DNA of 64,000 nt from assembly GCA_018696595.1 (NCBI GenBank), contig JABHQW010000008.1:363758-427757 (forward strand), in the 5' to 3' direction. This stretch comes from Candidatus Woesearchaeota archaeon (lineage in GTDB: Archaea > Nanobdellota > Nanobdellia > Woesearchaeales > GW2011-AR9). Made by a program: the position numbers and the translations under genes. This document shows positions 3,339-25,679 of the stretch, one piece after another. The notes under the pieces are model-generated. The model searched no databases. It worked only from the letters and a program-made list of their open reading frames with translations, and was not told the DNA's origin. Numbering within the stretch: position 1 is the first letter of the stretch; every line of letters starts with the position of its first letter.

Positions 3339-5093
3339 ATGAATATTAGAAAAATTGGAAGAAATGTTCTTAATGTTAGTAAATATACTGTTGCTGGTGC
3401 TACTTTGGGTGCTGGTTTATTTTTTGGTGGTCAAGCTTTAGCTGAAGAACCAAAAGATGTTGTTGAGCAACCTGACGCTTATGTAGAAGTTCAATCTGAA
3501 GTTCAGCCTGAACAAAGAGATCTTTATGATACTCAAACAGCTGAAGTTGCTGCGCCTCTTGAAGTTACTGTAACTCCTGAAGTTACTAATTATGAAACTC
3601 AATCAGCTCCTGAAGTCGTTGCACCTCTTGATGTTCAAACACCTGATGTTGCTACACCTCTTGAAGTTGCTGTAACTCCTGATACTCCTTCTCCGAGTTT
3701 CTCTTGGGGTGATTTGCTGAACGTGAATGGGCAAACTGTTATGCAAACTCCAACTGTAGAGCCTGTTGCAGAAACTAATCCCGTAGATTACAAGGGAACA
3801 ACTCCTGCGGTTGCAGATCCGGATGTAGCAATTGTTAATCCTGCAGAACCCGTTCTAGAACCACAATCTCCTATTCCTGTTAATGAGGATGGAACTGCTT
3901 ACAAGCTTGGACAAAAACCTGTTGTCGCTGATACTGTTGCAGGACCTAATGCTGTTGATTACAAAGGAACAACTCCCGTAGTTGAACCAGCTGTTGCAGA
4001 TAATCCTGTAGCTCCTTTAGAAGAAAAAGTTGCTGAAGTTAAAACAGAAACACCTTCTCATGCTGGGAAATTCTCAGTAAGTGGATGTGAAAAAGGACAA
4101 GAAGCTTATTTAGTTGCAACCGAAGACGGAAGTAACTTGAAAGCAGAATGTAAAACTCCTAAGAAGAAAGGGCCAAGATGTGTTGAACAGTATGAAGGAA
4201 ATGGTCGATGCATTGAACCCGTTTTAGCAGAATCTCATAATGTGCTTACTCCTGCTGTAAAAGGATTATGTCCTGGAACAACTCTATGTTATGATAGTTC
4301 TGAAGTTGACAATCTTGGTGAACAAATTGCTTTAGTTGCAAGAGTTTCTGAAGATAATAGAACCTATATCCATCAATTGGATGAATCTGTTAGCCAAAAT
4401 GGTCAAAATCTTAGTGAGTTAAGTGAAGTTGTTGATCAAAATGAACAAATTATTGATGAGTTAGATACTGCAGTTGATAAAAACTCTCGTGGTATTGGTT
4501 CTCTTGATAAAAAAGTTTCTGATCAATATAAAGTTAAATCTACTGATAAAAATAATGTTGAAGTTAACTTAAATCTTAGAGGAACGGTTTCTGCCGGAAT
4601 TGGTGCTGACTCAGACTCAATTGCTGTTTACATTGAACCTGAATTAAGTGTTGGCGGAACTTTCGGAGAACATTTCGGATTATTTGGTTATGTTAACGGA
4701 AATATTCCTGCATATGACCCTTCAGAAACTGATAACCATGAAAATGATTTAGGAATCATGACTGAAAATGTAGATACTGAAACAAACACTTCTCGAAGAG
4801 CTGGAGCTGGTTTAATGGCTAGGTTTCCTGTTGCTGATGGTGCTGTTACTCCTTATGCTAAAGTAGGAGCTGCTTTTATGCAAACTGAAGCAAGTAAAGA
4901 TATTTCTCGTAATGGGGAAGAAATTGATGCCCTGTCTGACAATTACAATGGCGTTGGTTTAGAAGGCGCATTAGGAATTGACTTTGACTTTGGTCAACCA
5001 GGCGGAATTGTTTTAGGTTTAGAAGGAAGAGCAAATTCCTTTGGTGGCGGATACGGCGCAGGATCTGGAATGTTAGGATACACTTTCAAATAG
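3339..5093 (+). CDS. secreted protein: Pro/Val/Glu-rich repeats, small Cys domain, coiled coil, C-terminal 8-stranded OmpA-like beta-barrel
   Basis: Signal peptide ending QALA-EE; repeats VDYKGTTP x2 and (A/T)PL(E/D)V x3; eight amphipathic strands including VTPYAKVGAAF and terminal GMLGYTFK. Confidence 0.75.
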   Translation: MNIRKIGRNVLNVSKYTVAGATLGAGLFFGGQALAEEPKDVVEQPDAYVEVQSEVQPEQRDLYDTQTAEVAAPLEVTVTPEVTNYETQSAPEVVAPLDVQTPDVATPLEVAVTPDTPSPSFSWGDLLNVNGQTVMQTPTVEPVAETNPVDYKGTTPAVADPDVAIVNPAEPVLEPQSPIPVNEDGTAYKLGQKPVVADTVAGPNAVDYKGTTPVVEPAVADNPVAPLEEKVAEVKTETPSHAGKFSVSGCEKGQEAYLVATEDGSNLKAECKTPKKKGPRCVEQYEGNGRCIEPVLAESHNVLTPAVKGLCPGTTLCYDSSEVDNLGEQIALVARVSEDNRTYIHQLDESVSQNGQNLSELSEVVDQNEQIIDELDTAVDKNSRGIGSLDKKVSDQYKVKSTDKNNVEVNLNLRGTVSAGIGADSDSIAVYIEPELSVGGTFGEHFGLFGYVNGNIPAYDPSETDNHENDLGIMTENVDTETNTSRRAGAGLMARFPVADGAVTPYAKVGAAFMQTEASKDISRNGEEIDALSDNYNGVGLEGALGIDFDFGQPGGIVLGLEGRANSFGGGYGAGSGMLGYTFK

Positions 5094-5117
5094 AGTTTGA
5101 TGTGAGGTAAACTTAAA

Positions 5118-7772
5118 ATGAAAAATACTTTTACTTTTTTTACAATTTTCCTATTTGTACTATCTATTGTTCCATTAGCAGCAGCAGCAGATGTTTCTGT
5201 TCAAGCTGAATGGTCAGTTAATGGAGAAGCTGCAGGTAAAATATTAAATGCTGAAACTGGAGAAGGAACTACTTTCGCAGTGATGGTTAATGCTTTAAAT
5301 GATAATTTAAACGATTATAACTTCTTTGTTAAAGTTTACGATGGCAGTTATGATGAGATGGTTAATCCTGGTTGGGAAACTACAAACGTAGAATCTTTCC
5401 CTGGCGGAACAACTATGTATACTGTTAATTATAATGCTCCTTTAACCGAAGGAACTTACTTTATTGTTGCTTCAGCATACTATGCTCAAGAAAACGATGA
5501 AGGATTTGATACACTAACATTAATTGTTACAGAAGCTCCTTGTTTAGATACAGACGATGACGGCGTTTGTGATGAAGATGAAATCTTGGGATGTACAGAC
5601 ACAGATGCAAATAATTACAATCCAAATGCAACTGAAGAAGACGACAGTTGTGAATACGATTGTTTAGATTCCGATGGCGATGGTGTTTGTGATGAAGATG
5701 AAATCTTAGGGTGTACTGATTCAGAAGCAGAGAATTTTAATCCAAATGCAACAGAAGAAGATAATAACTGTGAATATGCTTGTACAGATTCTGACAACGA
5801 TGGTGTTTGTGATGAAGATGATCTTTGTCCAGATGAACCTGGGCTATTAGATAATAATGGTTGTCCTGAAGAAGTTATTAATGAAGCTCCCATTATTGAA
5901 GTTTTTGGAACTAACAAAATTAATGAAATGAGTTCATTAAACTTAATCGTTGAAATTGAAGATGAGGATATTGTTAACTTAGAAGTTAAGGTTGAAAAAT
6001 GTGAGATTTATATTTTTGGGCTTTGCTTATTTGCAAGTTACACAGATGCTCCTGAAAATTCAGAATTAACTTTTGTTTCTGAAAACAAATATGCTTTTAC
6101 TTGGACTCCGGATTACCGTTTTGTAAAACATCCTGCAACAGAAAGATCTATTCGATTAGTTTTTATTGCCGATGACGGAGAAGCAAAAGATTATAATTTA
6201 CATAAAGTAACTGTTAACGATGTTAATCAATTACCTGTTTTAAGTTCAGAAGGCGTAGAAGATGTTGATGAAGGAAAAAGCTTTGTTGCTACTTTTACTG
6301 CCATTGATGCTGATGAAGAAGACGTCTTGGACTTGGGGATTATTTTAATGGGATATGAATTCATGGGTAATGATCTTCCTGATTGGATCTCTATGGAAAG
6401 TATTGCAAAGAATACAATTCAATTAACCGTAACTCCTGATTGTGATAGTGCTGGAGATTACTTCCTTAGATTTACTGCTAACGATGGACTATTCTTGGCG
6501 GAACTAATGGAACCATTTACTGTTACCGAAGCTTGTGATGCTCCAATTCTTGGATGTATGGATGAGTCTGCATTAAACTACAATCCTGAAGCAACCGAAG
6601 ATGATGAAAGTTGTGAATATACTTGTAGTGATGTGGATAACGACGGAGTTTGTGATGAAAATGATCTTTGTCCGCATGAAGTGGGTACTGAGAATAACAA
6701 AGGATGTCCTGAAGAACCTGTTGCTGATAATATGGTTCCTGTTCTAAGAGGATTAATGGATCAATCTGTTTATGCAGAAGAGAAATTAACATTTCAAATT
6801 CATGTGACTGATGACAATGATAAAAACATGGACTTAATTGTTGAAGGACTTCCAGAAGGAGCAGAAGTATTTGCTTCTAATCGGGTTGCACCTTTGCCTT
6901 TAAAAAACATCATGCAGAAATTATTTTTGAAAACAGAGTATAAACACACTTTTATTTTCAAATGGGTTCCAACAGAAGCACAAGTTGGTGAATACTTAGT
7001 AGGATTTACTGCTGACGATGGTTTAGCTAAATCGGAACAAAAGACAATCAAAATCACTGTATTAGAACAACCAGTTGAACCTTGTGTTGATACAGATTCT
7101 GATGGTATTTGCGACGAAGTTGATCTTTGTCCGTTAGATCCAGAAGATTTTGATGGTATTGAAGACGAAGATGGTTGTCCTGAAGATGATCCAGTTAACC
7201 ATGCACCTTTAATCTTATCAAATCCAACTACTGTTGCAACCGAGAATCATGATTACACTTACCAATTTTTGGCGGAAGATCCAGACGGAGACGAGATAAC
7301 TGTAACTTTAGTTGACGCTCCTGAAGGGATGACTATGTCTGAAGATTGGTTAGTTGAATGGATTCCTGAAGATTTAACTAATGGCAAAGTGGCTATTAGT
7401 GTAACTGACGGAGAGTTTGTGGTAACACAGAAGTTTACAATTGGCGTTGCTGAAGCTTACAAGAATGTTAAGCTAGCATCCGTACAATTGGCGGCTGAAG
7501 AAGTTGTTGCTGGTGGTTATTTGTCTACTCAAATCAAAGTAGAAAATAACGGCGAGAAAGATATGGGTGATTTAAAGATTAGTGTGATTGTTCCTGAGCT
7601 TGGATTGAAGAAGTCTGTGAGTGAGTTTGACTTGAAACCAGGGCAAAGTAAGAACAAGAACATTAATCTACAGTTACCTTATTACGCTTACTCTGGTGAG
7701 TATCTAGTTAAGGTAAGTGTTAGTAACAGCAATTTCCATGAACAAACCTATAGGTTGGTAACAATCTATTAG
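5118..7772 (+). CDS. large Ca-binding surface protein (DxDxDG/TSP3-like repeats, cadherin/Ig-like domains, C-terminal CARDB-like domain)
   Basis: Signal peptide; C(L/T/V)D(T/S)DxDG(V/I)CDExD repeats; ILGC(T/M)DxxAxN(Y/F)NPxATExDxxCEY x3; NHAPLILS Ig-like unit; VENNGEKD CARDB-like end. Confidence 0.8.
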   Translation: MKNTFTFFTIFLFVLSIVPLAAAADVSVQAEWSVNGEAAGKILNAETGEGTTFAVMVNALNDNLNDYNFFVKVYDGSYDEMVNPGWETTNVESFPGGTTMYTVNYNAPLTEGTYFIVASAYYAQENDEGFDTLTLIVTEAPCLDTDDDGVCDEDEILGCTDTDANNYNPNATEEDDSCEYDCLDSDGDGVCDEDEILGCTDSEAENFNPNATEEDNNCEYACTDSDNDGVCDEDDLCPDEPGLLDNNGCPEEVINEAPIIEVFGTNKINEMSSLNLIVEIEDEDIVNLEVKVEKCEIYIFGLCLFASYTDAPENSELTFVSENKYAFTWTPDYRFVKHPATERSIRLVFIADDGEAKDYNLHKVTVNDVNQLPVLSSEGVEDVDEGKSFVATFTAIDADEEDVLDLGIILMGYEFMGNDLPDWISMESIAKNTIQLTVTPDCDSAGDYFLRFTANDGLFLAELMEPFTVTEACDAPILGCMDESALNYNPEATEDDESCEYTCSDVDNDGVCDENDLCPHEVGTENNKGCPEEPVADNMVPVLRGLMDQSVYAEEKLTFQIHVTDDNDKNMDLIVEGLPEGAEVFASNRVAPLPLKNIMQKLFLKTEYKHTFIFKWVPTEAQVGEYLVGFTADDGLAKSEQKTIKITVLEQPVEPCVDTDSDGICDEVDLCPLDPEDFDGIEDEDGCPEDDPVNHAPLILSNPTTVATENHDYTYQFLAEDPDGDEITVTLVDAPEGMTMSEDWLVEWIPEDLTNGKVAISVTDGEFVVTQKFTIGVAEAYKNVKLASVQLAAEEVVAGGYLSTQIKVENNGEKDMGDLKISVIVPELGLKKSVSEFDLKPGQSKNKNINLQLPYYAYSGEYLVKVSVSNSNFHEQTYRLVTIY
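5539..5874 (+). repeat. intragenic tandem repeats (acidic Cys/Asp units)
   Basis: Near-identical DNA units such as TGTGATGAAGATGAAATCTTGGG / ...CTTAGG and AATCCAAATGCAAC. Confidence 0.8.
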
Positions 7773-7779
7773 GTATGAC

Positions 7780-7818
7780 TATTGCGGGGTAGCTATTAAG
7801 TGTAGCTACTCAACAATA
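7780..7818. promoter_or_regulatory. inverted repeat/hairpin upstream of a BRE-TATA
   Basis: GTAGCTA-N7-TAGCTAC core extended by TATTG/CAATA arms. Confidence 0.45.
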
Positions 7819-7827
7819 CTAAACCAA

Positions 7828-7842
7828 CGAAAACTTTATAAA
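7828..7842 (+). promoter_or_regulatory. BRE/TATA promoter
   Basis: CGAAAAC-TTTATAAA upstream of the 7919 gene; GGAGG SD before its ATG. Confidence 0.6.
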
Positions 7843-7918
7843 CCAAAGCGGTTTTAAAGACTAAAACACAAAAAAATAACATTCATAAAAGGATAAATTT
7901 TTTTTGGAGGAAGAAAAA

Positions 7919-9169
7919 ATGAAAAAACTTTTAAGTATAATGGCTTTATTCGTAATTAGCTTATTGACTTTATCAATGGTTAGTGCATTAGATGCAAATG
8001 ACCTAGTAATTAAGTCTATTGAAGTTAATGGCCACAATGTAGAAGATGGCGAAGTTCTTGCTGTTGAAGAAGGAGAAACTTTAGATGTTGAAGTTGGCTT
8101 ATTAGCTAACGCTGGTGCAGAAAATATTGAAGTGGAAGTTGAAATTTCAGGTTATGAATACAACGACCAAGAAGATATGGAAGCTACCGCACACATCGAT
8201 AATATCCAAGCTGGAAATACAAAATATTTTGACTTGGAAGTAACTTTGCCTAAGAAATTAGACAAGGATGAATACATGTTAAGAGTTCGTGTAATGGATA
8301 AGAATACTGCGGCAATTACCCACAATATTTTATTATCAATCGAACCTACAAGACATGGAATCGATATTGCAGACGTTGCTTTATCCCCTGGAGAAACCCA
8401 AAAAGCTGGTAGATCTTTTTTAGCTACTGTTCTATTGGAAAACTTCGGAGATAAAACTGAGAAAGACGTTAAAGTTGAAGTTGCAATTCCTGCATTAGGA
8501 GTTAAAGCTACTGAATACGTTGACGTTGTTGTAACCGATAACAATAATGTAGATTATGAAGACGTTCCTGAAATGTTCTTACCTCTTCCTGCTACTGCAG
8601 AAGCTGGTGCTTACGACATGATCGTTACAGTTAAATACGATGACTTAAGGGAAACTGTTAGCCAAACTTACAAAGTTAATGTTTTAGCTAACGAACTATT
8701 CCAAAAGTCTGACAAGTTAGTTTTAGCTGTTGGTCCGGAAAGTCAAACTGTTGCTGCTGGTAACACTGCTAGTTATGCTGTTGCATTAACAAACGCAGGA
8801 TCAACTTCTAAAGCTTATGTTTTAGATGTAGTTACTGGTGACTGGGCTACCGCAACTGTTAGTGATGCTTTAGTTGTTTTAGAACCTGGAAAGAACAAAG
8901 TTGTTCAAGTAGATGTAACCGCTGCTAGTAATGCTGTTGAAGGTCAACACGTTGCAAGCGTTGCTATTATGTCTGGTGACGAAGTTCTTGAAACCATCGT
9001 TCTAAAAGCAAACGTAGCTGGCACCGCTAGTGAGAGTTTTAGCTTAAGAAACGGTTTGGAAATCGCTTTAATCGTCTTAGTTGTTCTATTAGTAATCATT
9101 GGTTTAATCATTGGTTTCAGTAGATTAAGAAAAGACGACGAAGACGAAGAAGAACAAACTTACTACTAA
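7919..9169 (+). CDS. membrane-anchored surface/S-layer-associated protein with CARDB-like Ig domains
   Basis: ATG 7919 after GGAGG; signal peptide (VSA-LD); LLENFGDKTEKDV CARDB-like motif; C-terminal TM and acidic tail. Confidence 0.8.
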   Translation: MKKLLSIMALFVISLLTLSMVSALDANDLVIKSIEVNGHNVEDGEVLAVEEGETLDVEVGLLANAGAENIEVEVEISGYEYNDQEDMEATAHIDNIQAGNTKYFDLEVTLPKKLDKDEYMLRVRVMDKNTAAITHNILLSIEPTRHGIDIADVALSPGETQKAGRSFLATVLLENFGDKTEKDVKVEVAIPALGVKATEYVDVVVTDNNNVDYEDVPEMFLPLPATAEAGAYDMIVTVKYDDLRETVSQTYKVNVLANELFQKSDKLVLAVGPESQTVAAGNTASYAVALTNAGSTSKAYVLDVVTGDWATATVSDALVVLEPGKNKVVQVDVTAASNAVEGQHVASVAIMSGDEVLETIVLKANVAGTASESFSLRNGLEIALIVLVVLLVIIGLIIGFSRLRKDDEDEEEQTYY

Positions 9170-9324: not shown

Positions 9325-10428
9325 ATGGAAATAGCAATAATTGGGGCTGGTCCAATCGGCAGTTACGCTGGTTATTTACTAGCTAAGTCTGGACATAATG
9401 TTAATATTTATGAGCGGAAGAAAGAGATTGGTAAGCCCGTTCAATGTACTGGCATATTTACTTCTGACTTTGATGGATTTTCTTTTCTAAACAAAAATAA
9501 ATTTTTAGTTAATACTATTAATAAAACGGAAATCAATTTTCCTAATGGTAGCAAGATTGCTGTTAATCAGAAAGAATATGTGGTTTGCAGAACTAAGTTT
9601 GATAACCACTTAGCTAATCTGGCTGTTACTGAAGGAGCAAAAATTTTCTTGCAACATTCATTTATTAGGAAAGAAGGTGAGAATCTAGTTGTTAAAGATC
9701 TTGCTAATGATTGTGAAAAAGAAATTAAACCAAACATAGTAATCGCTGCAGATGGCCCCTTATCAAGCGTAGCAAAAGCTTATGGTTTCTATCATCATCA
9801 GAGACAACACAATTATGGTGTGCAGGCTTTAGTGGGGGGGAACTTTGATTCTAATACAGTACAAACGTTCTTTGGTAAAGATATTGCTCCTGGTGTGTTT
9901 GTTTGGGTTGTTCCTGAGAGTTCAACCATGGCGAGAGTTGGTTTAGCTACAGAAAAAGATGCCCGTAAATACTTTGAGAAATTTGTTCAGAATAAAGATT
10001 ATGAACTCTTAGAAATGCAGGCAGGTACAATTCCTATCTATCATCCTTCACAAGAATTGGTTAAAGATAGCTGTTATTTGCTTGGAGATGCTGCTGGGTT
10101 CGTTAAAGCGACTACTCTTGGTGGTGTAATTCCTGGAATGAAACAGGCGGAAGCTTTAGTTAGATGTTTAAATGATTCTGATTTGGATTATGAAGAAGAG
10201 CTTCAACCCATCATTAGTAGGCTCAAGTTACATCTGAAAATTAGAAAAGTTCATGATCGGTTTAGTGGAGAAGATTGGGAAAAGTTAGCTACTTATTCTA
10301 ATAATCCTAAAGTTTTGAAATTATTGAACACTTATACACGGGAGAATGTAACTACGTTATTTAGAAAGATTATTTGGGCAGAGCCAAGAATGTTATATTT
10401 TAGTAAGTATTTAGGCGAATTTCTTTAA
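9325..10428 (+). CDS. geranylgeranyl reductase family FAD-dependent oxidoreductase
   Basis: IIGAGPIG Rossmann motif, PVQCTG, IAADG, LLGDAAGFVKATTLGG. Confidence 0.88.
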   Translation: MEIAIIGAGPIGSYAGYLLAKSGHNVNIYERKKEIGKPVQCTGIFTSDFDGFSFLNKNKFLVNTINKTEINFPNGSKIAVNQKEYVVCRTKFDNHLANLAVTEGAKIFLQHSFIRKEGENLVVKDLANDCEKEIKPNIVIAADGPLSSVAKAYGFYHHQRQHNYGVQALVGGNFDSNTVQTFFGKDIAPGVFVWVVPESSTMARVGLATEKDARKYFEKFVQNKDYELLEMQAGTIPIYHPSQELVKDSCYLLGDAAGFVKATTLGGVIPGMKQAEALVRCLNDSDLDYEEELQPIISRLKLHLKIRKVHDRFSGEDWEKLATYSNNPKVLKLLNTYTRENVTTLFRKIIWAEPRMLYFSKYLGEFL

Positions 10429-12126: not shown

Positions 12127-12168
12127 TTTTCATATCTCCTCCTTTTTTAGGCAGAAAGGCAAACTGCT

Positions 12169-12188
12169 TAACTACTATTTAGTAGTTA
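12169..12188. promoter_or_regulatory. perfect palindrome, putative operator
   Basis: TAACTACTA-TT-TAGTAGTTA lying over the expected start site of the minus-strand TATA (TTTATATA at ~12197-12204). Confidence 0.65.
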
Positions 12189-12271
12189 TGTTTGTTGGTA
12201 TATAAATGCTCTCTCCCCTCGAAGGGGCGAAAAAAGAAAGATTTATAACTAAAACAAGCTTATTTAATCTA

Positions 12272-14227
12272 ATGGACTTAGAATTACTCAAAGAAATTGG
12301 TTTAACTGATGGAGAAATTAGGGTATATTTGGCTTTATTTAAGTTAGGTTCTACTTCTACTGGGCCATTAATCAAAGAATCAAAAGTACATGCATCTAAA
12401 GTTTATCCTATTTTGGATCGCTTGATAGAAAAAGGGTTAGTTTCATTTGTTAAATTGGATAAAAAAACAATTTATACTGCAAATCCTGCGACTACAATTA
12501 TTTCATATTTAGATAAATTACAGGGCAAGATTGGGCAACAAAAGAAATCCGCAGTTAATTTAATTGAGGAATTAACAAAGTTAAAAAGTTTAAATAAAAC
12601 CGAATCAGAAACAACCGTCTTTAAAGGAGCCAAAGGATTAAAAAATGCTTATAATATTGCTATCAAAGAATTAAAGAAAGGTGAAGATTGTTATGCAATG
12701 TTTTTACCTAAAGTAGCAAATAATTTACTGCCTTTTTTTGAGAAACTTATTACAGATGTTTCTAAAAAGAAAGTTAATCATTATTTGTTATACAATGAAC
12801 TCTCTCCAGAGATAGATTTGATTAAACATTTGCCTGGGACCAATGTTAGGGTTGATAGTCCCCACGGATATCAATCTCCAGCAGAAATGTGTGTTTATGG
12901 TGAATATACCATTGTCTCAACATCTGGTGGAAAAGAATATCTAACTATTTTAATAAAAGACAAGATCATTGCTAATTCTTTCAAAAATCAGTTTAAAGCA
13001 ATCTGGAATCAAGAAGTGCAAACTTTCCATGGGGTGGAGGGAATGCAATTTGCTTTCGATGAAGCCTTAAGAGCAACACCAAATGGGGCCACTAGTTATG
13101 TTTTTGGAGCAACAAAAACATCGAAGGGAACTGACAAATTACTCTTTGAATATAATAAAAGAAGAGCAGAAAAAGGAATTAAACTGAAAATATTGTTTAA
13201 TGAGGAAGCTACGAGTTCTAAAACAACAAGGTCTGCAAGAAAAGAAACAAATCCCTTGGCAGAGATAAAAATAATGCCCCATGAATCTACTCCGAGTGCT
13301 TATGAAGTTTTTCCAGATAGAGTTATTATCACAACAGCGTCTAGGGGAAATCCAACATCGATTGTGATTAAAGATAAAGAATTTGTTAAAACCTGTATCA
13401 TTCAATTTAATGAGCTTTGGAATCAGAAAACAAGAACATTTCGAGGAAAAAAAGGCGTGGAAACTATTTTTAATGAAGCTCTTAATTCTAAAGAGATTAG
13501 GTTTATTGGTGGTAATTGGGGGATGGTTAAGTATCATAAAGCATTCTTTGAGAACTGGAACCTAGAAAGGGAAAAGAAAAAAATTATGTGGTTGGATTTA
13601 GTTGATGCCGACGTTCTAATAAAACAGAAAGAGGTGCCCAAACAACTAAAACATTATCAAGTGAAAGTTCTCCCCGAACAAGTTAATAGTCCAGGGGTAA
13701 TATTTATTTATGGGAATAAAGTTGCTACAATTATTTGGAAAAAAGAAGCCATCATTAATGTTGTTGAAAGTAAAGAAACCGTTGATCATTATAAAAAATA
13801 TTTTGATTATCTTTGGGATCAAAGAATTAAGACTTATTCTGGAAAAGACGGGGTGAAGAATCTTCTTAATACTATGCTTGATACAGAATCAAAAGAGTAT
13901 TTTGCGTATGGTGGTCCTCAAAAAGCCTATGATTTATTGGGACACACTTTTTGGAAAAGTTTTCATGAAAAAAGAGTCCATAAAGGTATTGATGCTGAAC
14001 TGGTTTTCCATTCTTCTTTGGGTTGGTGGGGAGATAAACTAAATGAATTAGAATTAACTGAAGTTAGAACAACGAAAAAAGATTTTGAAGAGTTAACTGA
14101 AACCGTAATTTGTGGAAACAAAGTAGCAATTATTGTTTGGCTTGACCATCCTTTTGGAATTTTAATGGAAGAACCTCTTGCTGCGAAATCTTATCAGAAA
14201 TTTTTTGAATTAATTTGGGAAAAATAG
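12272..14227 (+). CDS. TrmB-family transcriptional regulator with four tandem effector-binding domains
   Basis: N-terminal LKEIGLTDGEIRVYLAL wHTH; four ~140-aa repeats beginning TFxGxxG and ending F..(I/L)W; TATA ~27 nt before ATG 12272 (leaderless). Confidence 0.85.
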   Translation: MDLELLKEIGLTDGEIRVYLALFKLGSTSTGPLIKESKVHASKVYPILDRLIEKGLVSFVKLDKKTIYTANPATTIISYLDKLQGKIGQQKKSAVNLIEELTKLKSLNKTESETTVFKGAKGLKNAYNIAIKELKKGEDCYAMFLPKVANNLLPFFEKLITDVSKKKVNHYLLYNELSPEIDLIKHLPGTNVRVDSPHGYQSPAEMCVYGEYTIVSTSGGKEYLTILIKDKIIANSFKNQFKAIWNQEVQTFHGVEGMQFAFDEALRATPNGATSYVFGATKTSKGTDKLLFEYNKRRAEKGIKLKILFNEEATSSKTTRSARKETNPLAEIKIMPHESTPSAYEVFPDRVIITTASRGNPTSIVIKDKEFVKTCIIQFNELWNQKTRTFRGKKGVETIFNEALNSKEIRFIGGNWGMVKYHKAFFENWNLEREKKKIMWLDLVDADVLIKQKEVPKQLKHYQVKVLPEQVNSPGVIFIYGNKVATIIWKKEAIINVVESKETVDHYKKYFDYLWDQRIKTYSGKDGVKNLLNTMLDTESKEYFAYGGPQKAYDLLGHTFWKSFHEKRVHKGIDAELVFHSSLGWWGDKLNELELTEVRTTKKDFEELTETVICGNKVAIIVWLDHPFGILMEEPLAAKSYQKFFELIWEK

Positions 14228-16698: not shown

Positions 16699-16755
16699 AT
16701 GAATACTTTACTTTTATTAGCAATATTTATAAATTATACTCTTGGAAGTGATAAA

Positions 16756-17322: not shown

Positions 17323-17479
17323 TCTCTTTTAACATTTCTTCTTTATTCTTAAACTTCTTTTGACACTCGAAACAAACTTCATATTGTTTGCTCTTGCCTT
17401 CTTTCTTAATTATCGTTCCTTTTAATTTTCCTAAAAATAATTCAGCGATTTTATTCCCACAAATTGTACATTTAGCCAT
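17315..17479 (-). CDS. small zinc-finger protein (54 aa; not in the ORF track)
   Basis: MAKCTICGNKIAELFLGKLKGTIIKKEGKSKQYEVCFECQKKFKNKEEMLKRLK*; two CxxC pairs. Confidence 0.75.
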   Translation of the reverse strand: MAKCTICGNKIAELFLGKLKGTIIKKEGKSKQYEVCFECQKKFKNKEEMLKEIK

Positions 17480-17556
17480 TTTAGAATACTTTATGTCTTT
17501 TGATTTTTAAAACTTACCACCAAAAACCATATAAATGTAATCATTAAAATAACCCT

Positions 17557-19320
17557 ATGAAGAAAAGAATAGCTATAATCGATAAGGAGAAATGTCATCC
17601 TAGTGAATGTGGAGATTATCTTTGTGCTAAATTGTGCCCTGTTAATAGAACTGGAACAGATTGTGTCTTGCCACATGAAATACATAAAAAAGCAAAGATT
17701 GACGAATTACTTTGTACTGGCTGTTCTATTTGCTCAAACAGATGTCCTTATCAAGCAATCCAAATTATTAATCTTCCAGAAGCATTAAACAAAGAACCAG
17801 TTCATCGGTTCGGAGAGAATGCTTTTGAATTATTTTCTTTACCAACACCAATCTTTGGTCAAGTTACAGGAATCTTGGGAAAGAATGGTATTGGGAAAAC
17901 TACTGCTTTACAAATTCTGGCAGGATTATTAAAGCCAAACTTAGGCAACTATGAAAAAGAAACTGATTTTAAGGATGTTATCAATTATTTCAAAGGCAGT
18001 GAGACTCAGAAATTCTTAATGAAAATGCATGTTGGCGATATCAAATTATCTTACAAATTGCAACAAGTTGATTTGATTGCTAAACAGTTTACTGGAACCG
18101 TTCGTGAGTTATTAGAAAAAGTTGATGAAAAAAAACAATTAAATGAAGTTGCTCAAGAATTACAATTAACAAGATTCTTAGATACTCCAGTTAACAAAAT
18201 TTCTGGTGGAGAATTACAACGAGTAGCAATTGCTGCTTCTGTATTAAAGAAAGCTAACATTTATTTCTTTGACGAACCTAGCTCTTATCTTGATATTAAG
18301 CAAAGGGTTAACGTTTCTAAATTTATTAGAAATCTAGCAGATGAAGATACTTCAATCATCGTTATTGAACACGATTTAATTATTCTTGATTACATGACAG
18401 ATCTATTGAATTTAATGTACGGGCAAGAATCTGCTTATGGTATTGTTTCTGGGATCAAGAATTCTAGGGAAGGAATCAATGCTTTCTTGGAAGGTTTTCT
18501 GAAAGAAGAAAATATTCGTTTTAGGTCTTATCCTATTAAGTTTGAGAAAGTTCAAGATAGACAAGTGGGAACTCAACAAAAACTAATTTCTTGGAAACAT
18601 TTAAGCAAGAAGTTAGGGAACTTTATTTTGGAATCTGAATCTGGAGAATTATATAAAAACGAGATTATTGGTGTTTTAGGGGAAAATGGAATTGGTAAAA
18701 CTAGTTTTGTAAAAGTATTAGCGGGATTAATTAAACCAGACTCTGGCGAGATTGATTCTGAAATTAAAGTTGCTTACAAACCTCAATACTTAGAAACTGC
18801 TTCAGATGAATTAGTAATGCAATATTTAGATGATGCAGTTCAACAGTATCAAAACCAATTAATTAAACCATTAGATATGGAAAGATTAATGATGAAAAAA
18901 TTGTCTGAACTTTCTGGTGGAGAATTACAAAAAGTATCTATTGTTAAATGTCTGAGTGAAGATGCAGAATTGTTTCTTCTGGATGAGCCTTCTGCTTATC
19001 TAGACGTTGAACAACGATTATTAATCTCTAAAGTAATTAAAAGTTTAACTGCAGAAAGAGAGATTACTGTTTTAGTGGTAGATCACGATTTAATGTTTTT
19101 AGATTATTTGTCTGATCGACTTGCTGTATTTACAGGAGAACCCGCTAAATCTGGTTTATTACAAGGTCCTTTTGATATGGTTGAAGGAATGAATTTGTTT
19201 TTAGAAGAGTTAGGCATTTCATTACGTAGAGATCCAAATTCGCATCGGCCTCGGATTAACAAAGCCGGAAGTGTAAAGGATCGAGAACAACGTGCAGAAG
19301 GAAAGTTGTATTATAACTAA
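17557..19320 (+). CDS. abce1: ribosome recycling ATPase ABCE1/Rli1
   Basis: N-terminal 2x[4Fe-4S] Cys pattern, two ABC domains (GKNGIGKT, GENGIGKT, SGGELQ). Confidence 0.96.
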   Translation: MKKRIAIIDKEKCHPSECGDYLCAKLCPVNRTGTDCVLPHEIHKKAKIDELLCTGCSICSNRCPYQAIQIINLPEALNKEPVHRFGENAFELFSLPTPIFGQVTGILGKNGIGKTTALQILAGLLKPNLGNYEKETDFKDVINYFKGSETQKFLMKMHVGDIKLSYKLQQVDLIAKQFTGTVRELLEKVDEKKQLNEVAQELQLTRFLDTPVNKISGGELQRVAIAASVLKKANIYFFDEPSSYLDIKQRVNVSKFIRNLADEDTSIIVIEHDLIILDYMTDLLNLMYGQESAYGIVSGIKNSREGINAFLEGFLKEENIRFRSYPIKFEKVQDRQVGTQQKLISWKHLSKKLGNFILESESGELYKNEIIGVLGENGIGKTSFVKVLAGLIKPDSGEIDSEIKVAYKPQYLETASDELVMQYLDDAVQQYQNQLIKPLDMERLMMKKLSELSGGELQKVSIVKCLSEDAELFLLDEPSAYLDVEQRLLISKVIKSLTAEREITVLVVDHDLMFLDYLSDRLAVFTGEPAKSGLLQGPFDMVEGMNLFLEELGISLRRDPNSHRPRINKAGSVKDREQRAEGKLYYN

Positions 19321-20351
19321 GAACTAGTTCTCATTGCATTATAATCTACTAGATTAAGAACATAATCAGAAACTTTCCAATTGATTCTTGTAAACTCTCC
19401 AAAATGATCTCCACCGGCTTGGGCTGATGCTTCTTTATCAAGAAGTGCAATTTCTACTTCTGGGGCAACAATCTCAGAAACATCACGATGACGATATTCT
19501 CCACTCCAAATACTTTTGGTGTGGGCAACAAATCTTGGGATCATCGAGTAACGATTACCTCCAACTGCCCTAATGTGCATTTTCCCTTCTGATCTTGCTT
19601 TTTTTGCATAAGGAAAACCCACAAAATTATAACCAAAATAAGGGGTCGTTCCTGCTACTAAAGCATGGATTTGATTTTCTTGTAAGAATCTTTCCCCATC
19701 TCCAAGAGGAAGCCTCATAAATTCTATGTCTTCTTCAAAAATTTCAGCAAGTTCTGCCCCTTGTGGAAAACTAATTTCAAATTTTAGTTTTTTACCAAAA
19801 AAGATTTCTGTAGCAGAAGAAGGGATTGTGCTAAAGTATCCTACTAAACCGTTCAATGGGCTTTGTTTGTACTTTTTTAAAATGATTCCATCCCAACCAG
19901 CCCCGGTTAACATAGAATAAGTTTTCTCTTTTTCTCCTTGAGGGGTGGTTCCAGTAATCTCAATTAACGGGACTTGTATTGTTGGTAATTCATTAACATC
20001 TGTTTCTAAAATCATTTCTAATTGTTCTAAATGGTCTTTACCTGCACCTAATTCATAAGAAATAGCATTACCCGTTCCCAATTTTAATATTGCAAATAAT
20101 TGTTTGTTAAATGACAAACCTAATTCTTCACATAAAAGAATGAATTTATTACTTTCATATCTGATTGTTCCATCTCCTCCTCCAAGAGTAATTACTTGTG
20201 GTTTATCCTGTAAAGTTTTTCTTCTAGGATAATTTCCTGAATATATTTTAACTCTATAGTCTTCAGCAAATCTTTGCTCAATTGCATTAATTATCTTCGG
20301 GGTGAATCTTCCAGCTCTTGGATTTAATTTAGCTACTAGGCTTTCTACCAT
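19317..20351 (-). CDS. diacylglycerol kinase-family lipid kinase
   Basis: GGGDGTI and LGTGNAI motifs; GAGWDG; terminal AGGD. Confidence 0.8.
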   Translation of the reverse strand: MVESLVAKLNPRAGRFTPKIINAIEQRFAEDYRVKIYSGNYPRRKTLQDKPQVITLGGGDGTIRYESNKFILLCEELGLSFNKQLFAILKLGTGNAISYELGAGKDHLEQLEMILETDVNELPTIQVPLIEITGTTPQGEKEKTYSMLTGAGWDGIILKKYKQSPLNGLVGYFSTIPSSATEIFFGKKLKFEISFPQGAELAEIFEEDIEFMRLPLGDGERFLQENQIHALVAGTTPYFGYNFVGFPYAKKARSEGKMHIRAVGGNRYSMIPRFVAHTKSIWSGEYRHRDVSEIVAPEVEIALLDKEASAQAGGDHFGEFTRINWKVSDYVLNLVDYNAMRTSS

Positions 20352-20407
20352 ATTTCCATTTAGAAACGTTTACTTTTATAAAAATAATGAAAAAGAAAAA
20401 TAAAAAA

Positions 20408-20794
20408 TTAAGAAACGATTACGCTACCTTGCATTCCTGGATGGAATTGGCAAAAGTATCTGTACTGTCCTGCTTCAGTAAAGGTGTGAGTTAATGATGT
20501 TGTTCCAATTGGAAGTTTCTCATCAAAATCACCATTTTCAAAAGTTACTGTATGCGCAGTAGAATCTTTGTTAACCCATTCTATAGTGTCACCAACTTTA
20601 AGATCTAAATCAATAGGCATGAATTGAGAATTCTCAATTGCTACTTGGTAAACTTCTCCAGTTGCTACAACTGCAGTATTAGTTTCTTCTACTTCAACTA
20701 CTTCTTCAACATTATCTTCTACTACTTCTGATCCACAAGCCACTAATAGAAACATAACACTTAACAAAGCTATTAACCCTAATATTTTCTTCAT
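20408..20794 (-). CDS. plastocyanin/azurin-type blue copper lipoprotein
   Basis: Start MKKIL at 20794; lipobox LVAC; ligands H (STAHTV), C-x-x-H-x-x-M (CQFHPGM). Confidence 0.88.
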   Translation of the reverse strand: MKKILGLIALLSVMFLLVACGSEVVEDNVEEVVEVEETNTAVVATGEVYQVAIENSQFMPIDLDLKVGDTIEWVNKDSTAHTVTFENGDFDEKLPIGTTSLTHTFTEAGQYRYFCQFHPGMQGSVIVS

Positions 20795-20834
20795 TTTATT
20801 GTCCTCCAAAATATATAAGGTTAAATATTGACGT

Positions 20835-21605
20835 TTATTTAAATATCTTTCTCCAATCTTCCTTATAAAACTTAACAAAGAGATATAGTGCAACAATTAC
20901 CATAATCAAACTAAACCATTGGCCAATCGTTAATTTGAACCATAAAACGTCTTCGCGATAGAAATCTACTAAGAATCTTCCTAATCCTTCCCAAAAAACG
21001 AAGTTCAGAAATATAAACCCTGGCTTAAATGATTTCCAGAATGTTAGCAAGAAAAGCCAACCAGTAACAATAAATCTTTTCCCTGCTGCGTATAATGTAG
21101 ATGGGTGCCTACAACCATCATATCCTTTAAACAATACGCACCACTTACCTTGGAATGGTCTACCAACTAATTCTCCATTAATGAAATTAGCAATTCTTCC
21201 CAAAGCTAAAGCAAACAAGGCGGGAATTGACATAGCATCAGCCAATTTCCAGAAATTAAATCTATGTTTCTTACAATAAATGTAAGCTGCAACTACAATT
21301 CCTACAAATCCACCGTGAAAACTCATCCCTCCTTCCCAAAATTTGAGAAAGTTAAATGGATTTGACAAGTAGTAACTTGGTTGCCAAAAAACTTCAAATA
21401 CTCTTGATCCGATTAATACTCCGACCATCAACCAAAATGCAAAATCCCAGATCTGTTCTTTGTTTAATTCTAGTTTGCCTTTTTTTCTAAGATAATATAA
21501 CCAAGCAATAGACAGAAAGAATCCCAGGACATACATTAGCCCGTACCATCTGATTTCTAACGGCCCTAAGGAAAGTAATGTTGGGTTAAGATTGTGAATG
21601 TACAT
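20835..21605 (-). CDS. lgt: prolipoprotein diacylglyceryl transferase
   Basis: IRWYGLMY, GGMSFHGG, GRIANFINGELVGR, RHPSTLY and GRFLVDFYRE motifs of bacterial Lgt. Confidence 0.93.
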   Translation of the reverse strand: MYIHNLNPTLLSLGPLEIRWYGLMYVLGFFLSIAWLYYLRKKGKLELNKEQIWDFAFWLMVGVLIGSRVFEVFWQPSYYLSNPFNFLKFWEGGMSFHGGFVGIVVAAYIYCKKHRFNFWKLADAMSIPALFALALGRIANFINGELVGRPFQGKWCVLFKGYDGCRHPSTLYAAGKRFIVTGWLFLLTFWKSFKPGFIFLNFVFWEGLGRFLVDFYREDVLWFKLTIGQWFSLIMVIVALYLFVKFYKEDWRKIFK

Positions 21606-25678: not shown

Positions 25679-25679
25679 A

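What the first reader, a model, noticed from the sequence alone, without database searches (positions are those of the whole stretch)
3339..21605. Hypothesis: a bacterial-style envelope or host-interface toolkit in a DPANN archaeon
Within about 18 kb of archaeal genes there are two unrelated OMP-like barrels, Lgt, a lipid kinase and repeat adhesins, and the rest of the window is rich in lipoproteins and extracytoplasmic redox proteins. Inference only: either the cell has a second membrane or periplasm-like compartment, or it exports barrels into a diderm bacterial host's outer membrane using the host BAM. I am not aware of either being described for this group, but I could not search.
Basis: inference. 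Interest (0 to 1): 0.75.

Follow-up and report, generated by a model that had tools for sequence, protein, structure and literature searches.

The report
Outer-membrane-type barrel proteins in Woesearchaeon
A tiny marine DPANN archaeon carries conserved genes for two unrelated proteins predicted to fold like bacterial outer-membrane barrels, yet it and 300 sampled relatives lack the known barrel-insertion machinery, so which membrane they enter is open and testable; the surrounding 'toolkit' is several independent modules, not one system.

Summary
ORF 3339-5093 ends in an 8-strand OmpA-like barrel (VIA Z 15.4). ORF 11221-12126 holds a 12-strand PcoB/NanC-like barrel (Z 19.1, pLDDT above 90). 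Their lipid-facing sides are hydrophobic, and both end in an aromatic-rich last strand. The Lgt gene is genuine, and the DAG-kinase-fold gene, the adhesin, seven lipobox proteins and the extracytoplasmic thiol-redox genes are also present.

The 'toolkit' reading is only partly supported.
- Lgt occurs in 263 of 300 sampled genomes of the phylum, so it is housekeeping. LspA lies 30 kb upstream.
- The Lgt-kinase tandem is not conserved in relatives.
- The two barrel families are unrelated and never co-occur in the other genomes sampled.
- Barrel A forms a conserved unit with the adhesin, seen only in 3 of 35 same-family genomes.
- Barrel B is a DPANN-only family (21 of 300 genomes, 2-3 paralogues here). 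In all seven loci checked it sits divergent from a TrmB-type regulator.

Omp85 was found in 0 of 301 genomes, and only about five barrel genes exist here. A classical outer membrane is therefore unlikely. I favour self-inserting barrels acting at a partner cell's membrane (confidence about 0.4).

This scan has noted DPANN barrels before, in at least 27 other genomes.

The parts
3339..5093 (+). Barrel A protein, 584 aa. Layout: Sec signal peptide (about 3339-3443, ending ALA|EE), Pro/Val/Glu-rich spacer (about 3444-4058), Cys-rich domain (about 4086-4298), coiled-coil stalk (about 4314-4526), and an 8-strand OmpA-like barrel (about 4554-5090) ending GYTFK.
   Evidence: AF2 model. Foldseek. VIA Z 15.4 to OmpA. 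Relatives share the architecture and end in GYxF. Homologues score below threshold on PF13505.
5118..7772 (+). Secreted repeat adhesin of 884 aa with no membrane anchor. It has a signal peptide, Cys/Asp-rich CxDxDxDGxCD motifs, He_PIG/Big_9/cadherin-like Ig domains and a C-terminal CARDB-like domain. It is the conserved downstream partner of barrel A.
   Evidence: Pfam. Homologue directly downstream of the barrel A homologue in G053, G195 and G132.
7904..9169 (+). Candidate S-layer or major surface protein of 421 aa, with a signal peptide, NPCBM_assoc/CARDB-like domains and a C-terminal transmembrane helix with a basic tail.
   Evidence: Pfam. 62% identical in relatives and syntenic after the adhesin.
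9325..10428 (+). Geranylgeranyl reductase family protein. It saturates archaeal lipid chains and is an archaeal marker. A 367-aa ORF of the same size closes the syntenic block in G053; its identity was not tested.
   Evidence: Pfam and TIGR02032, 173 bits against a 159 cut-off. 367-aa ORF at the same position in G053.
11221..12126 (-). Barrel B protein, long form, 301 aa. Layout: conserved N-terminal domain of about 94 aa (11845-12126), a hydrophobic signal/anchor segment (11788-11844, ending GLA|DE), and a 12-strand barrel (11224-11772) ending GGFVGTTF.
   Evidence: AF2 pLDDT above 90. Foldseek and VIA. Atlas. Family of 41 clusters, all DPANN or unnamed. Paralogues at C3:28860-29600 and C3:5-163. 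AGGAGG at 12136-12141, 9 nt before the ATG.
12169..12188 (.). Perfect palindrome TAACTACTA-TT-TAGTAGTTA in the 79-bp divergent promoter region. It is a candidate operator for the TrmB-type regulator.
   Evidence: A related CTACTAT..ATAGTAG palindrome lies at the own paralogue, and TACTATTGAGTA occurs in L002. It was not seen in the other four loci.
12206..14227 (+). TrmB-family transcription regulator of 673 aa, with an N-terminal TrmB HTH and a long C-terminal part. It is divergent from barrel B.
   Evidence: PF01978 E 3e-12. A TrmB homologue is divergent from the barrel B homologue in 5 of 5 relatives' loci and at the own paralogue C3:28860-29600; the truncated copy at the contig start has a TrmB-like gene about 800 bp away.
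19317..20351 (-). DAG-kinase-fold (DAGK_cat) protein; substrate unknown.
   Evidence: PF00781 at 31 bits against a 23.6 cut-off. No NCBIfam hit. Not next to Lgt in five relatives.
20408..20794 (-). Cupredoxin lipoprotein with signal peptide MKKILGLIALLSVMFLLVAC.
   Evidence: Pfam. Translation.
20835..21605 (-). Bacterial-type prolipoprotein diacylglyceryl transferase (Lgt).
   Evidence: PF01790 E 9e-65. TIGR00544 equivalog passed. Signature motifs present. Found in 263/300 sampled genomes of the phylum.
21698..23071 (+). Lipobox lipoprotein of 457 aa (LLSGC), no known family.

Best explanation
The 18-kb stretch is not one system. It holds three independent things on a genuine Woesearchaeal chromosome.

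(1) Housekeeping lipoprotein maturation of the bacterial type. Lgt is here and LspA is 30 kb upstream. The pathway is nearly universal in the phylum and serves about 36 lipobox proteins.

(2) A fast-evolving surface module restricted to this taxonomic family. It is a Sec-exported protein with a spacer, a Cys-rich domain, a coiled-coil stalk and a C-terminal 8-strand OmpA-like barrel. It is encoded immediately upstream of a large anchorless Ig-repeat adhesin.

(3) A DPANN-specific 12-strand PcoB/NanC-like barrel with 2-3 paralogues. Each copy is paired with a divergent TrmB-type (sugar-sensing type) regulator.

Shown here: the folds, the amphipathic pattern, the conservation, the synteny, and the lack of Omp85.

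Inferred: after Sec export the barrels enter a lipid bilayer without an insertase. This is helped by their small size and, in B, by very short loops of 2-7 residues. The bilayer is most likely that of a partner cell at the contact zone. In that reading A anchors or bridges the adhesin-bearing stalk to the partner. B opens a small regulated solute channel there.

My split over where the barrels sit is: partner membrane about 40%, own cytoplasmic membrane about 20%, own outer lipid layer about 15%, not in a membrane about 10%, other about 15%.
For: Folds are confident and match only membrane barrels at the top of the lists. One strand face is hydrophobic and the other polar. The C-terminal GGFxGxx[F/L] and GYxF strands are conserved.

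Omp85 was found in 0 of 301 genomes, all at least 90% complete. TolC, OMP_b-brl, OprD and Gcw_chp were not found in this genome. My two heuristic censuses found only three candidate families, about five genes among roughly 1250 ORFs.

Distribution is patchy and non-overlapping, as expected for accessory interaction genes. B is in 21/300 genomes. A is in 3/35 of the same family and 0/265 elsewhere, and no sampled genome other than this one has both. A and the adhesin diverge fast (28-35% identity), while the neighbouring S-layer-like protein keeps 62%.

The A-adhesin gene pair is conserved. The B-TrmB divergent pair is conserved in all seven loci checked, and a palindrome lies in the shared promoter.

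The genome encodes a lytic transglycosylase with intact E-S, GLMQ and YN motifs. Published work reads such genes as a sign of bacterial partners for Woese- and Pacearchaeota (PMC8204110, PMC9723730). Neither GGGP synthase nor PlsY was found, which fits dependence on a partner for lipids.

GC3 of the barrel genes is typical of the genome, so they are long resident.
Against: No monomeric OMP-type barrel is known to be delivered in trans into another cell's membrane. No injection or delivery apparatus was identified.

After signal-peptide cleavage, protein A has nothing that ties it to the producing cell. That fits an anchor in the cell's own membrane at least as well.

The long form of B has a translated 94-aa N-terminal domain and a hydrophobic segment only about 6-10 residues before the barrel. 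This favours the same membrane or a very tightly apposed one, unless signal peptidase cleaves at GLA|DE.

A sugar-regulator-coupled channel is what a cell with its own outer barrier would need.

Everything rests on predicted structures.
Confidence: 0.4

Rival explanations
1. The barrels sit in the archaeon's own single cytoplasmic membrane, inserted from outside after Sec export. A serves as a beta-barrel foot for an outward-pointing stalk that carries the adhesin. B is tethered next to its own transmembrane helix.
For: It is the only membrane the genome clearly accounts for. Long-form B has a hydrophobic segment 6-10 residues before strand 1, with Arg residues on the N-side. That geometry fits helix and barrel in the same bilayer. 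After signal cleavage, the barrel is A's only membrane-binding element. Small barrels with short loops are the ones expected to self-insert.
Against: To my knowledge, no natural transmembrane beta-barrel is known in an energy-conserving cytoplasmic membrane. An unplugged 12-strand channel with a polar lumen would leak ions. Pairing with a nutrient-type regulator has no obvious sense for a mere anchor.
Confidence: 0.2
2. The lineage has its own outer lipid layer and a periplasm-like space. B is a nutrient-regulated porin. A is an OmpA/OmpM-like tether. The barrels are assembled by an unknown insertase unrelated to Omp85.
For: The folds and terminal strands are OMP-like. B is coupled to a TrmB-type regulator, much as specific porins are coupled to catabolic regulators. 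A's stalk-plus-barrel layout recalls OmpM/SlpA tethers. The window is rich in lipoproteins, DsbA/DsbD-type oxidative folding genes and a MacB/LolCDE-like ABC system. From my own knowledge, double membranes have been reported for some other archaea, including Altiarchaeales. A possible porin-like relative in Altiarchaeales is mentioned in PMC12228718.
Against: Omp85 was found in 0 of 301 genomes. TolC and known OMP families were not found in this genome. Only about five barrel genes exist here. Each family is patchy even among genera of one family, which is unlike a basic envelope feature. The anchorless adhesin would have no route across such a layer. The short linker in long-form B would not span a periplasm.
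Confidence: 0.15
3. The domains are not membrane-embedded. They are beta-barrels that are soluble, buried in an oligomer or associated with the S-layer, and the structure predictor renders them OMP-like.
For: The barrel A model is only medium confidence, with pLDDT 70-87 from 11 sequences. No sequence-level membership in any OMP family reaches threshold for the window's own proteins. Some soluble barrels appear lower in the VIA lists, such as nitrobindin and PsbO at Z 8-10.
Against: B is modelled at pLDDT above 90. All its top matches are membrane barrels at Z 15-19, clearly above the soluble ones. The outward face is strongly hydrophobic, with 8% polar residues. A's homologues touch PF13505, and a bona fide bacterial OMP_b-brl protein is reached by phmmer.
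Confidence: 0.1
4. The genes are bacterial DNA mis-binned into the genome, or very recent and functionless transfers.
For: Lgt, LspA, SLT and the barrel folds are typically bacterial.
Against: They lie inside a 428-kb contig flanked by archaeal genes. GC3 is 0.15-0.23 against a genome value of 0.22 +/- 0.04. Synteny is conserved in relatives. Homologues are found only in DPANN. All reading frames are intact.
Confidence: 0.02

Closest known systems
8-stranded bacterial outer-membrane barrels: OmpA transmembrane domain (1bxw/1qjp), OmpW, OprF N-domain, Ail/OmpX (Pfam OMP_b-brl PF13505, OmpA_membrane PF01389)
   Same: The eight long antiparallel amphipathic strands match at Z 15.4 (rmsd 2.7 A over 152 residues). 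The hairpins extend well beyond the hydrophobic belt. The last strand is aromatic-rich. There is faint sequence kinship: homologues score PF13505 E 9e-4 and 6e-3, and phmmer links the domain to a true OMP_b-brl protein at E 2e-5.
   Different: The gene is archaeal and the genome has no Omp85. The barrel is at the C-terminus, behind a Pro-rich spacer, a Cys-rich domain and a coiled-coil stalk. It lacks the peptidoglycan-binding OmpA_C domain. The window's own protein has no Pfam hit at all. It is operonic with a large adhesin.
Small 12-stranded outer-membrane barrels: PcoB/CopB (7pge), NanC/KdgM/VhGalP sugar-acid channels, Tsx, OMPLA; and an unnamed ~203-aa Bacteroidota family in the ESM Atlas
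   Same: The 12-strand barrel matches at Z 19.1 (PcoB), 16.8 (OMPLA), 16.0 (NanC), 15.5 (Tsx) and 15.4 (KdgM). The Atlas match to the Bacteroidota family is TM 0.85 with rmsd 1.4 A. The lumen is polar and the exterior hydrophobic. The terminal residue is Phe or Leu. Like KdgM and NanC, it is under a dedicated nutrient-type regulator.
   Different: There is no detectable sequence similarity to any of them (Pfam and PDB profile searches empty). The loops are extremely short on both sides. Some members carry a 35-95-aa N-terminal extension before the signal-like segment. The family is DPANN-only. The membrane it sits in is unknown.
OmpM/SlpA-type stalked barrels of Negativicutes, Deinococcus-Thermus and Cyanobacteria, and trimeric autotransporter adhesins (head, coiled-coil stalk, barrel anchor)
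   Same: The overall logic is shared: an N-terminal binding region, a coiled-coil stalk and a C-terminal membrane barrel. This holds for barrel A and for the third candidate at C3:336476-338461.
   Different: No SLH domain and no YadA-type 4-strand anchor were found. The barrel is a closed 8-strand monomeric unit, too small to pass a passenger domain. Oligomeric state was not tested.
Bacterial Lgt/LspA lipoprotein pathway, versus the archaeal AliA/AliB pathway (PMC12462473)
   Same: Lgt passes the equivalog threshold and keeps its signature motifs. LspA is present, and classical lipoboxes (L-[VS]-G-C) are abundant.
   Different: The host is an archaeon. The 2025 paper states that no archaeal homologues of bacterial Lgt or Lsp had been identified, yet here Lgt is found in 263 of 300 genomes of this phylum. 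The lipid donor is unknown: neither GGGP synthase nor PlsY was found in this genome.

Membership tests
OMP_b-brl / OmpA-like 8-strand outer-membrane barrels (PF13505, PF01389) | Closed 8-strand antiparallel amphipathic barrel | tested here: met
   AF2 model. VIA Z 15.4 to OmpA and 15.0 to OmpW. Foldseek. Strand-face analysis.
OMP_b-brl / OmpA-like 8-strand outer-membrane barrels (PF13505, PF01389) | Score above the Pfam gathering threshold | tested here: not met
   The window's domain has 0 Pfam hits even at E<=10. Homologues P0027 and P0029 reach 19.9 and 17.1 bits against a 28.7-bit cut-off. PF13505 has no match in this genome.
OMP_b-brl / OmpA-like 8-strand outer-membrane barrels (PF13505, PF01389) | C-terminal aromatic beta-signal strand | tested here: met
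   The window's protein ends GYTFK. Relatives end GYKF, GYRF, GNKF or GGKF.
OMP_b-brl / OmpA-like 8-strand outer-membrane barrels (PF13505, PF01389) | Residence in an outer membrane and assembly by BAM (Omp85) | tested here: not met
   Omp85 PF01103 was found in 0 of 301 genomes while the controls were positive. Localisation itself cannot be tested with these tools.
12-strand small OM channels (CopB/PcoB PF05275, KdgM/NanC, Tsx) | 12-strand barrel fold | tested here: met
   pLDDT above 90. VIA Z 19.1 to PcoB, 16.0 to NanC, 15.5 to Tsx. Atlas TM 0.68 to a CopB cluster.
12-strand small OM channels (CopB/PcoB PF05275, KdgM/NanC, Tsx) | Sequence membership (family HMM) | tested here: not met
   The only Pfam hit at E<=10 is Legionella_OMP at E 0.021. 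The PDB profile search found nothing.
12-strand small OM channels (CopB/PcoB PF05275, KdgM/NanC, Tsx) | Open solute channel | not testable with these tools
   The lumen-facing residues are polar. No coordinates or electrophysiology are available.
Prolipoprotein diacylglyceryl transferase (Lgt; TIGR00544, PF01790) | Equivalog HMM threshold and signature motifs | tested here: met
   182.3 bits against a 118.9-bit cut-off. HGG and GRIANFINGELVG are present.
Prolipoprotein diacylglyceryl transferase (Lgt; TIGR00544, PF01790) | Pathway context: lipobox substrates and signal peptidase II | tested here: met
   About 36 lipobox ORFs. LspA PF01252 E 3e-31 at C3:333263-333649.
Diderm (outer-membrane) cell plan | Omp85 insertase, TolC-type ducts and many OMP families | tested here: not met
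   The heuristic censuses found about five barrel genes. Lpt and Lol chaperones were not searched.
Diderm (outer-membrane) cell plan | Second lipid bilayer seen by microscopy | not testable with these tools
   No imaging of this lineage was found in the papers searched.
OmpM/SlpA stalked barrel tethers | N-terminal SLH domain, coiled coil and a large C-terminal porin barrel | tested here: not met
   A coiled coil and a C-terminal barrel are present. No SLH hit was found, and the barrel has 8 strands.

The most novel reading that the evidence does not exclude
This marine Woesearchaeal lineage, and by the scan's other notes many DPANN, assembles bacterial-type transmembrane beta-barrels without any Omp85-family insertase. 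The barrels would sit either in a so far unseen outer lipid layer of its own or directly in the membrane of a partner cell, as tethers and nutrient channels. Either outcome would be the first beta-barrel membrane proteome in Archaea and the first Omp85-independent one.
Probability: 0.5. Interest if true: 0.88.

Novelty: new variant of a known kind. Interest (0 to 1): 0.62.

Why it matters
Transmembrane beta-barrels are held to be a hallmark of bacterial outer membranes and of the organelles derived from them, and to depend on Omp85 insertases.

Conserved archaeal barrel genes of long standing, in genomes without Omp85, raise two open questions. One is what the envelope of the abundant uncultured Woesearchaeota looks like. 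The other is how DPANN cells attach to their partners and tap them.

The barrels give concrete handles for experiments. There are two small domains to express and fold in vitro, a regulator-operator pair, and an adhesin operon.

As a by-product, bacterial-type Lgt and LspA prove to be core genes of this archaeal phylum. That qualifies a recent statement that archaea lack homologues of them.

Tried and rejected
- **Complex prediction.** Complex prediction with barrel A residues 241-405 against adhesin residues 24-850 gave no verdict (score 0.00). It counts neither for nor against binding.
- **PDB sequence searches.** The profile of barrel B against PDB sequences found nothing. The profile of barrel A gave only chance hits through its coiled coil.
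- **Family scans of the barrels.** Pfam and NCBIfam found no family for either of the window's barrel proteins.
- **Kinship of A and B.** hhalign of A against B gave no relation.
- **Third barrel candidate** (C3:336476-338461). Support is weak only. The Atlas model has pLDDT 0.44, and porin-like rows score 0.88-0.90. A single-protein query found no homologue in 40 same-family genomes. It stays a lead.
- **N-terminal domain of long-form B.** The Atlas gave no usable match.
- **Internal translation start.** I looked for an internal start that would make the N-extension of B an artefact. No internal ATG or Shine-Dalgarno sequence was seen, the upstream ATG has AGGAGG, and seven clusters conserve the extension. 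The idea is rejected.
- **Lgt and kinase as a functional pair.** The tandem is not conserved in five relatives. Rejected.
- **Contamination or recent transfer.** Rejected on GC3, synteny and contig context.
- **Literature.** Four searches and look-ups in two DPANN genomics papers found no description of such barrels in Woesearchaeota. The only related text is one sentence on a possible Altiarchaeales relative of PopA.


Full report
**Setting**

The window is G000:C3:363758-427757, the end of a 428-kb contig. The genome is 1.19 Mb in 8 contigs, rated 97% complete and 0.4% contaminated. Genes on both sides of the finding are archaeal in type:
- RLI/ABCE1 (17557-19320)
- a geranylgeranyl reductase (9325-10428; TIGR02032 at 173 bits against a 159 cut-off)
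- TrmB-family regulators
- RtcA

The named close homologues of one barrel are from Candidatus Woesearchaeota. NCBI places that phylum under Archaea; Nanobdellati. One relative of the other barrel comes from a Tara Oceans mesopelagic 0.1-0.22 um fraction. The 'DPANN archaeon' premise therefore holds.

**Barrel A (3339-5093, +, 584 aa)**

Read directly from the sequence and from the model of residues 241-584, the protein has these parts:
- a Sec signal peptide ending ALA|EE
- about 200 residues of Pro/Val/Glu-rich spacer
- a small Cys-rich domain
- a helical stalk of about 70 residues
- a beta domain of about 180 residues ending GYTFK

An exhaustive HMMER search of 1.8 billion representatives with the last 190 residues found 12 proteins. 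Nine full-length ones share the same layout and end in GYKF, GYRF, GNKF or GGKF.

The AF2 model, built on that alignment, gives pLDDT 70-87 over the barrel. Foldseek returns OmpA, Ail, OmpX and NspA. VIA-align gives Z 15.4 to OmpA (rmsd 2.7 A over 152 residues), 15.0 to OmpW and 14.9 to the OprF N-domain.

The window's own domain has no Pfam hit. Two homologues reach PF13505 OMP_b-brl below threshold (E 9e-4 and 6e-3). phmmer also links the domain to a genuine bacterial OMP_b-brl/OmpA_membrane protein at E 2e-5. A distant kinship with bacterial 8-strand barrels is therefore likely, but formal membership is not met.

**Barrel B (11221-12126, -, 301 aa)**

The first search found 24 clusters, and a profile search raised that to 41. 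All are unnamed or labelled DPANN, and none is bacterial. The AF2 model on 24 sequences has pLDDT 90-97 over residues 119-300. It shows twelve long strands joined by connections of only 2-7 residues.

Structural matches are:
- Foldseek: PcoB E 3e-6, then FapF, NanC, KdgM and autotransporter beta-domains
- VIA-align: Z 19.1 PcoB, 16.8 OMPLA, 16.0 NanC, 15.6 VhGalP, 15.5 Tsx, 15.4 KdgM
- ESM-Atlas shape search: TM 0.85 and rmsd 1.4 A over 183 residues to an unnamed Bacteroidota family of about 203 aa, followed by CopB, Tsx and DUF5020 clusters

No sequence similarity to any of these is detectable. hhalign finds no relation between families A and B. 'Two unrelated OMP-like barrels' is correct.

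Taking the modelled strands and splitting alternate residues gives a clear two-faced pattern:

| Barrel | Outward face (mean KD) | Strongly polar, outward | Inward face (mean KD) | Strongly polar, inward |
|---|---|---|---|---|
| B | +1.66 | 8% | -0.64 | 36% |
| A | +1.12 | 16% | -1.44 | 45% |

This is the pattern of a lipid-embedded barrel with a water-filled interior. The last strand, GGFxGxx[F/L], is nearly invariant.

**An oddity in B**

The window's copy and six other clusters carry a conserved N-terminal extension of about 94 residues. It lies before the signal-like hydrophobic segment, which ends GLA|DE. The extension is really translated:
- its ATG follows AGGAGG at a spacing of 9 nt
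- no internal ATG or ribosome-binding site is visible
- the extension is conserved at 61-72% identity across those clusters

Other members have pre-hydrophobic regions of about 35 residues, or of fewer than 10 residues. The barrel is therefore either tethered 6-10 residues from a transmembrane helix, or released by signal peptidase from an unusually long leader. I could not decide between these. No fold match was found for the extension.

**Other items in the finding**

- **Lgt** (20835-21605) is unambiguous.
- **Cupredoxin.** The downstream gene is a lipoprotein with the lipobox LVAC.
- **'Lipid kinase'.** It is a DAGK_cat-fold protein above the Pfam cut-off, but it has no finer assignment.
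- **Adhesin** (5118-7772). It has Ig-like He_PIG/Big_9 domains and a CARDB-like end, and it has no anchor.
- **Surface protein** (7904-9169). It looks like a major surface or S-layer protein with a C-terminal transmembrane helix.
- **Lipobox ORFs.** A simple scan finds about 36 clear ones in the genome. Seven lie in this window, where about 2 would be expected by length. This is a modest enrichment, and it was noticed post hoc.
- **Rest of the window.** It holds a DsbA-like protein, a redoxin lipoprotein, DsbD_TM, a DUF3179 lipoprotein and a MacB-type ABC system with two permeases.

**Is it a toolkit?**

Four results argue against a single co-inherited unit.

1. Lgt is in 263 of 300 sampled genomes of the phylum, including 34 of 35 in the same family. 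LspA lies 30 kb upstream of the window. This is phylum-wide housekeeping.
2. In five relatives examined, the kinase and cupredoxin genes are not next to Lgt. In three same-family genomes Lgt lies near RLI, directly adjacent in two.
3. Family B occurs in 21 of 300 sampled genomes, all in the same class. Family A occurs in only 3 of 35 genomes of the same family and in none of the other 265. The A-bearing genomes are G053, G132 and G195. The B-bearing same-family genomes are G022, G097, G160, G197, G227, G241, G256, G285 and G286. The two sets do not overlap.
4. Each barrel has its own conserved local context.
   - **Barrel A.** It is always followed on the same strand by the adhesin homologue. 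In two of the three relatives the S-layer-like homologue comes next, and in G053 an ORF of the reductase's size follows it.
   - **Barrel B.** It is always divergent from a TrmB-family regulator: in 5 of 5 relatives' loci and at the own paralogue C3:28860-29600, while the truncated copy at the contig start has a TrmB-like gene about 800 bp away.
   - **Promoter.** The shared promoter in the window holds a perfect 9-2-9 palindrome, TAACTACTA-TT-TAGTAGTTA. A related palindrome lies at the own paralogue and a TACT-N4-AGTA site occurs in one relative.

The barrels are not recent imports. Their GC3 is 0.15-0.23, against 0.22 +/- 0.04 for the genome.

**Machinery and census**

Omp85 was not found in this genome or in any of 300 sampled relatives, all at least 90% complete. 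The control diderm genomes all gave hits. TolC (OEP), OMP_b-brl, OprD and Gcw_chp models find nothing in this genome.

I ran two crude sequence censuses. One used period-2 amphipathicity of the last 180 residues. The other used a terminal beta-signal pattern. Together they recover A, B, B's paralogue and one further candidate. That candidate is a 661-aa protein at C3:336476-338461, with a signal peptide, a beta-rich head, a long coiled coil and about 190 beta-rich residues ending QATW. Its support is weak, and no homologue was found in 40 same-family genomes.

That makes about five genes in three families among roughly 1250 ORFs.

**Mechanism**

What is shown:
- two conserved, exported proteins with the OMP fold
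- amphipathic strand patterns
- the absence of the only known class of barrel insertase
- independent, patchy inheritance of the two families
- an adhesin partner for A and a regulator partner for B

What is inferred is where the barrels go. I weigh four possibilities.

*Partner membrane (about 40%).* This best fits the accessory, fast-evolving and patchy pattern: A and the adhesin are 28-35% identical among relatives, against 62% for the neighbouring surface protein. It also fits the adhesin link and the DPANN lifestyle. The genome has a lytic transglycosylase with intact catalytic motifs. Castelle et al. and Vigneron et al. read such genes as a sign of bacterial partners (PMC8204110, PMC9723730). 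Neither GGGP synthase nor PlsY was found, while four CDP-alcohol phosphatidyltransferases and a reductase are present. This suggests that lipids are scavenged and then remodelled. In this reading A is a tether whose barrel plugs into the partner, and B is a small solute channel that is switched on by a sugar-type regulator. The weak points are that there is no precedent for delivering OMP-type monomers in trans, and no delivery device was seen.

*Own cytoplasmic membrane (about 20%).* This fits the short helix-to-barrel linker of long-form B, and the fact that the barrel is A's only anchor. Against it, an open 12-strand channel there would short-circuit the membrane.

*Own outer lipid layer (about 15%).* This would explain a regulated porin, stalked tethers and the periplasm-like set of lipoproteins and Dsb proteins. 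It conflicts with the missing Omp85, the very small barrel repertoire and the patchy distribution within one family.

*Not in a membrane (about 10%).* This is disfavoured by the hydrophobic exterior and by the ranking of structural matches.

**Comparison with what is known**

My searches found no description of such barrels in Woesearchaeota. The nearest text is one sentence on a possible distant PopA relative in Altiarchaeales (PMC12228718).

A 2025 paper on archaeal lipoproteins states that no archaeal homologues of bacterial Lgt or Lsp had been identified (PMC12462473). The counts here show both in this phylum.

This scan has already noted porin-like barrels in DPANN archaea, in at least 27 other genomes. 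These include 12-strand KdgM/NanC-like ones and one family paired with an archaeal regulator. The general phenomenon is therefore not new to the scan. Three things are specific here:
- the stalked 8-strand barrel with its adhesin operon
- the B family's invariable TrmB pairing and its long N-terminal forms
- the demonstration that the local 'toolkit' is a coincidence of independent modules

**Limits**

All structural statements rest on predictions, and the barrel A model is of medium confidence only. The censuses are heuristic. The genome samples are samples, and relatives are not independent of one another. The complex prediction gave no verdict.

Noticed in passing
window 20835-21605; G000:C3:333263-333649; 300 genomes of the phylum: Bacterial-type Lgt (equivalog-level) is present in 263/300 sampled genomes of this archaeal phylum, and LspA is present in this genome. 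A 2025 paper (PMC12462473) states that no archaeal homologues of bacterial Lgt or Lsp had been identified.
   Followed up: partly
G000:C6:266158-267564 (L014 661-2067): A 468-aa protein with N-terminal hydrophobic segments and an SLT lytic-transglycosylase domain (PF01464 E 5e-23; the ES, GLMQ and YN motifs are intact). It is a peptidoglycan-cutting enzyme in an archaeon, which fits a bacterial partner or prey.
   Followed up: partly
G000:C3:336476-338461 (L012 5477-7462): A third barrel candidate of 661 aa, with a signal peptide, a beta-rich head, a long coiled coil and about 190 beta-rich residues ending FAVQATW. It has the same head-stalk-barrel logic as barrel A. Atlas support is weak, and no homologue was found in 40 same-family genomes.
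   Followed up: partly
window 11845-12126 (-): A conserved N-terminal domain of about 94 aa precedes the signal-like segment of barrel B in seven clusters. Other members have extensions of about 35 aa or none. No fold or family match was found. Its role (cytoplasmic domain, pro-region or extended leader) is unexplained.
   Followed up: partly
window 12169-12188: A perfect palindrome TAACTACTA-TT-TAGTAGTTA lies between barrel B and its TrmB-type regulator. A related palindrome lies at the paralogue's promoter (C3, about 29612-29631).
   Followed up: partly
whole genome G000: Neither GGGP synthase (PcrB) nor PlsY was found. Four CDP-alcohol phosphatidyltransferases and a geranylgeranyl reductase are present. 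The cell may remodel scavenged lipids rather than build the backbone itself.
   Followed up: partly
window 32688-37217: A CARDB surface protein is followed by two MacB_PCD/FtsX permeases and an ABC ATPase. The LolCDE-like layout sits in a genome rich in lipoproteins.
   Followed up: no
window 37325-38938, 60334-60981, 61650-62717, 62719-63510: An extracytoplasmic thiol-redox set: a 537-aa DsbA-like protein, a redoxin lipoprotein, a DUF3179 lipoprotein and a DsbD/CcdA-type membrane protein. It fits the many Cys-rich secreted proteins, such as the barrel A stalk and the adhesin.
   Followed up: no
window 25665-27941: Adenylosuccinate synthetase is fused to a C-terminal HAD phosphatase domain (758 aa). 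It lies next to an adenylosuccinate lyase that is unusually long at 574 aa.
   Followed up: no
window 12206-14227: The TrmB-type regulator next to barrel B is 673 aa, against about 240-250 aa for those beside the two other own copies. Most regulators in the relatives' loci are of similar short size, though some frames are cut by the locus end. The extra length looks like repeated C-terminal modules, a reading from the sequence that was not analysed.
   Followed up: no
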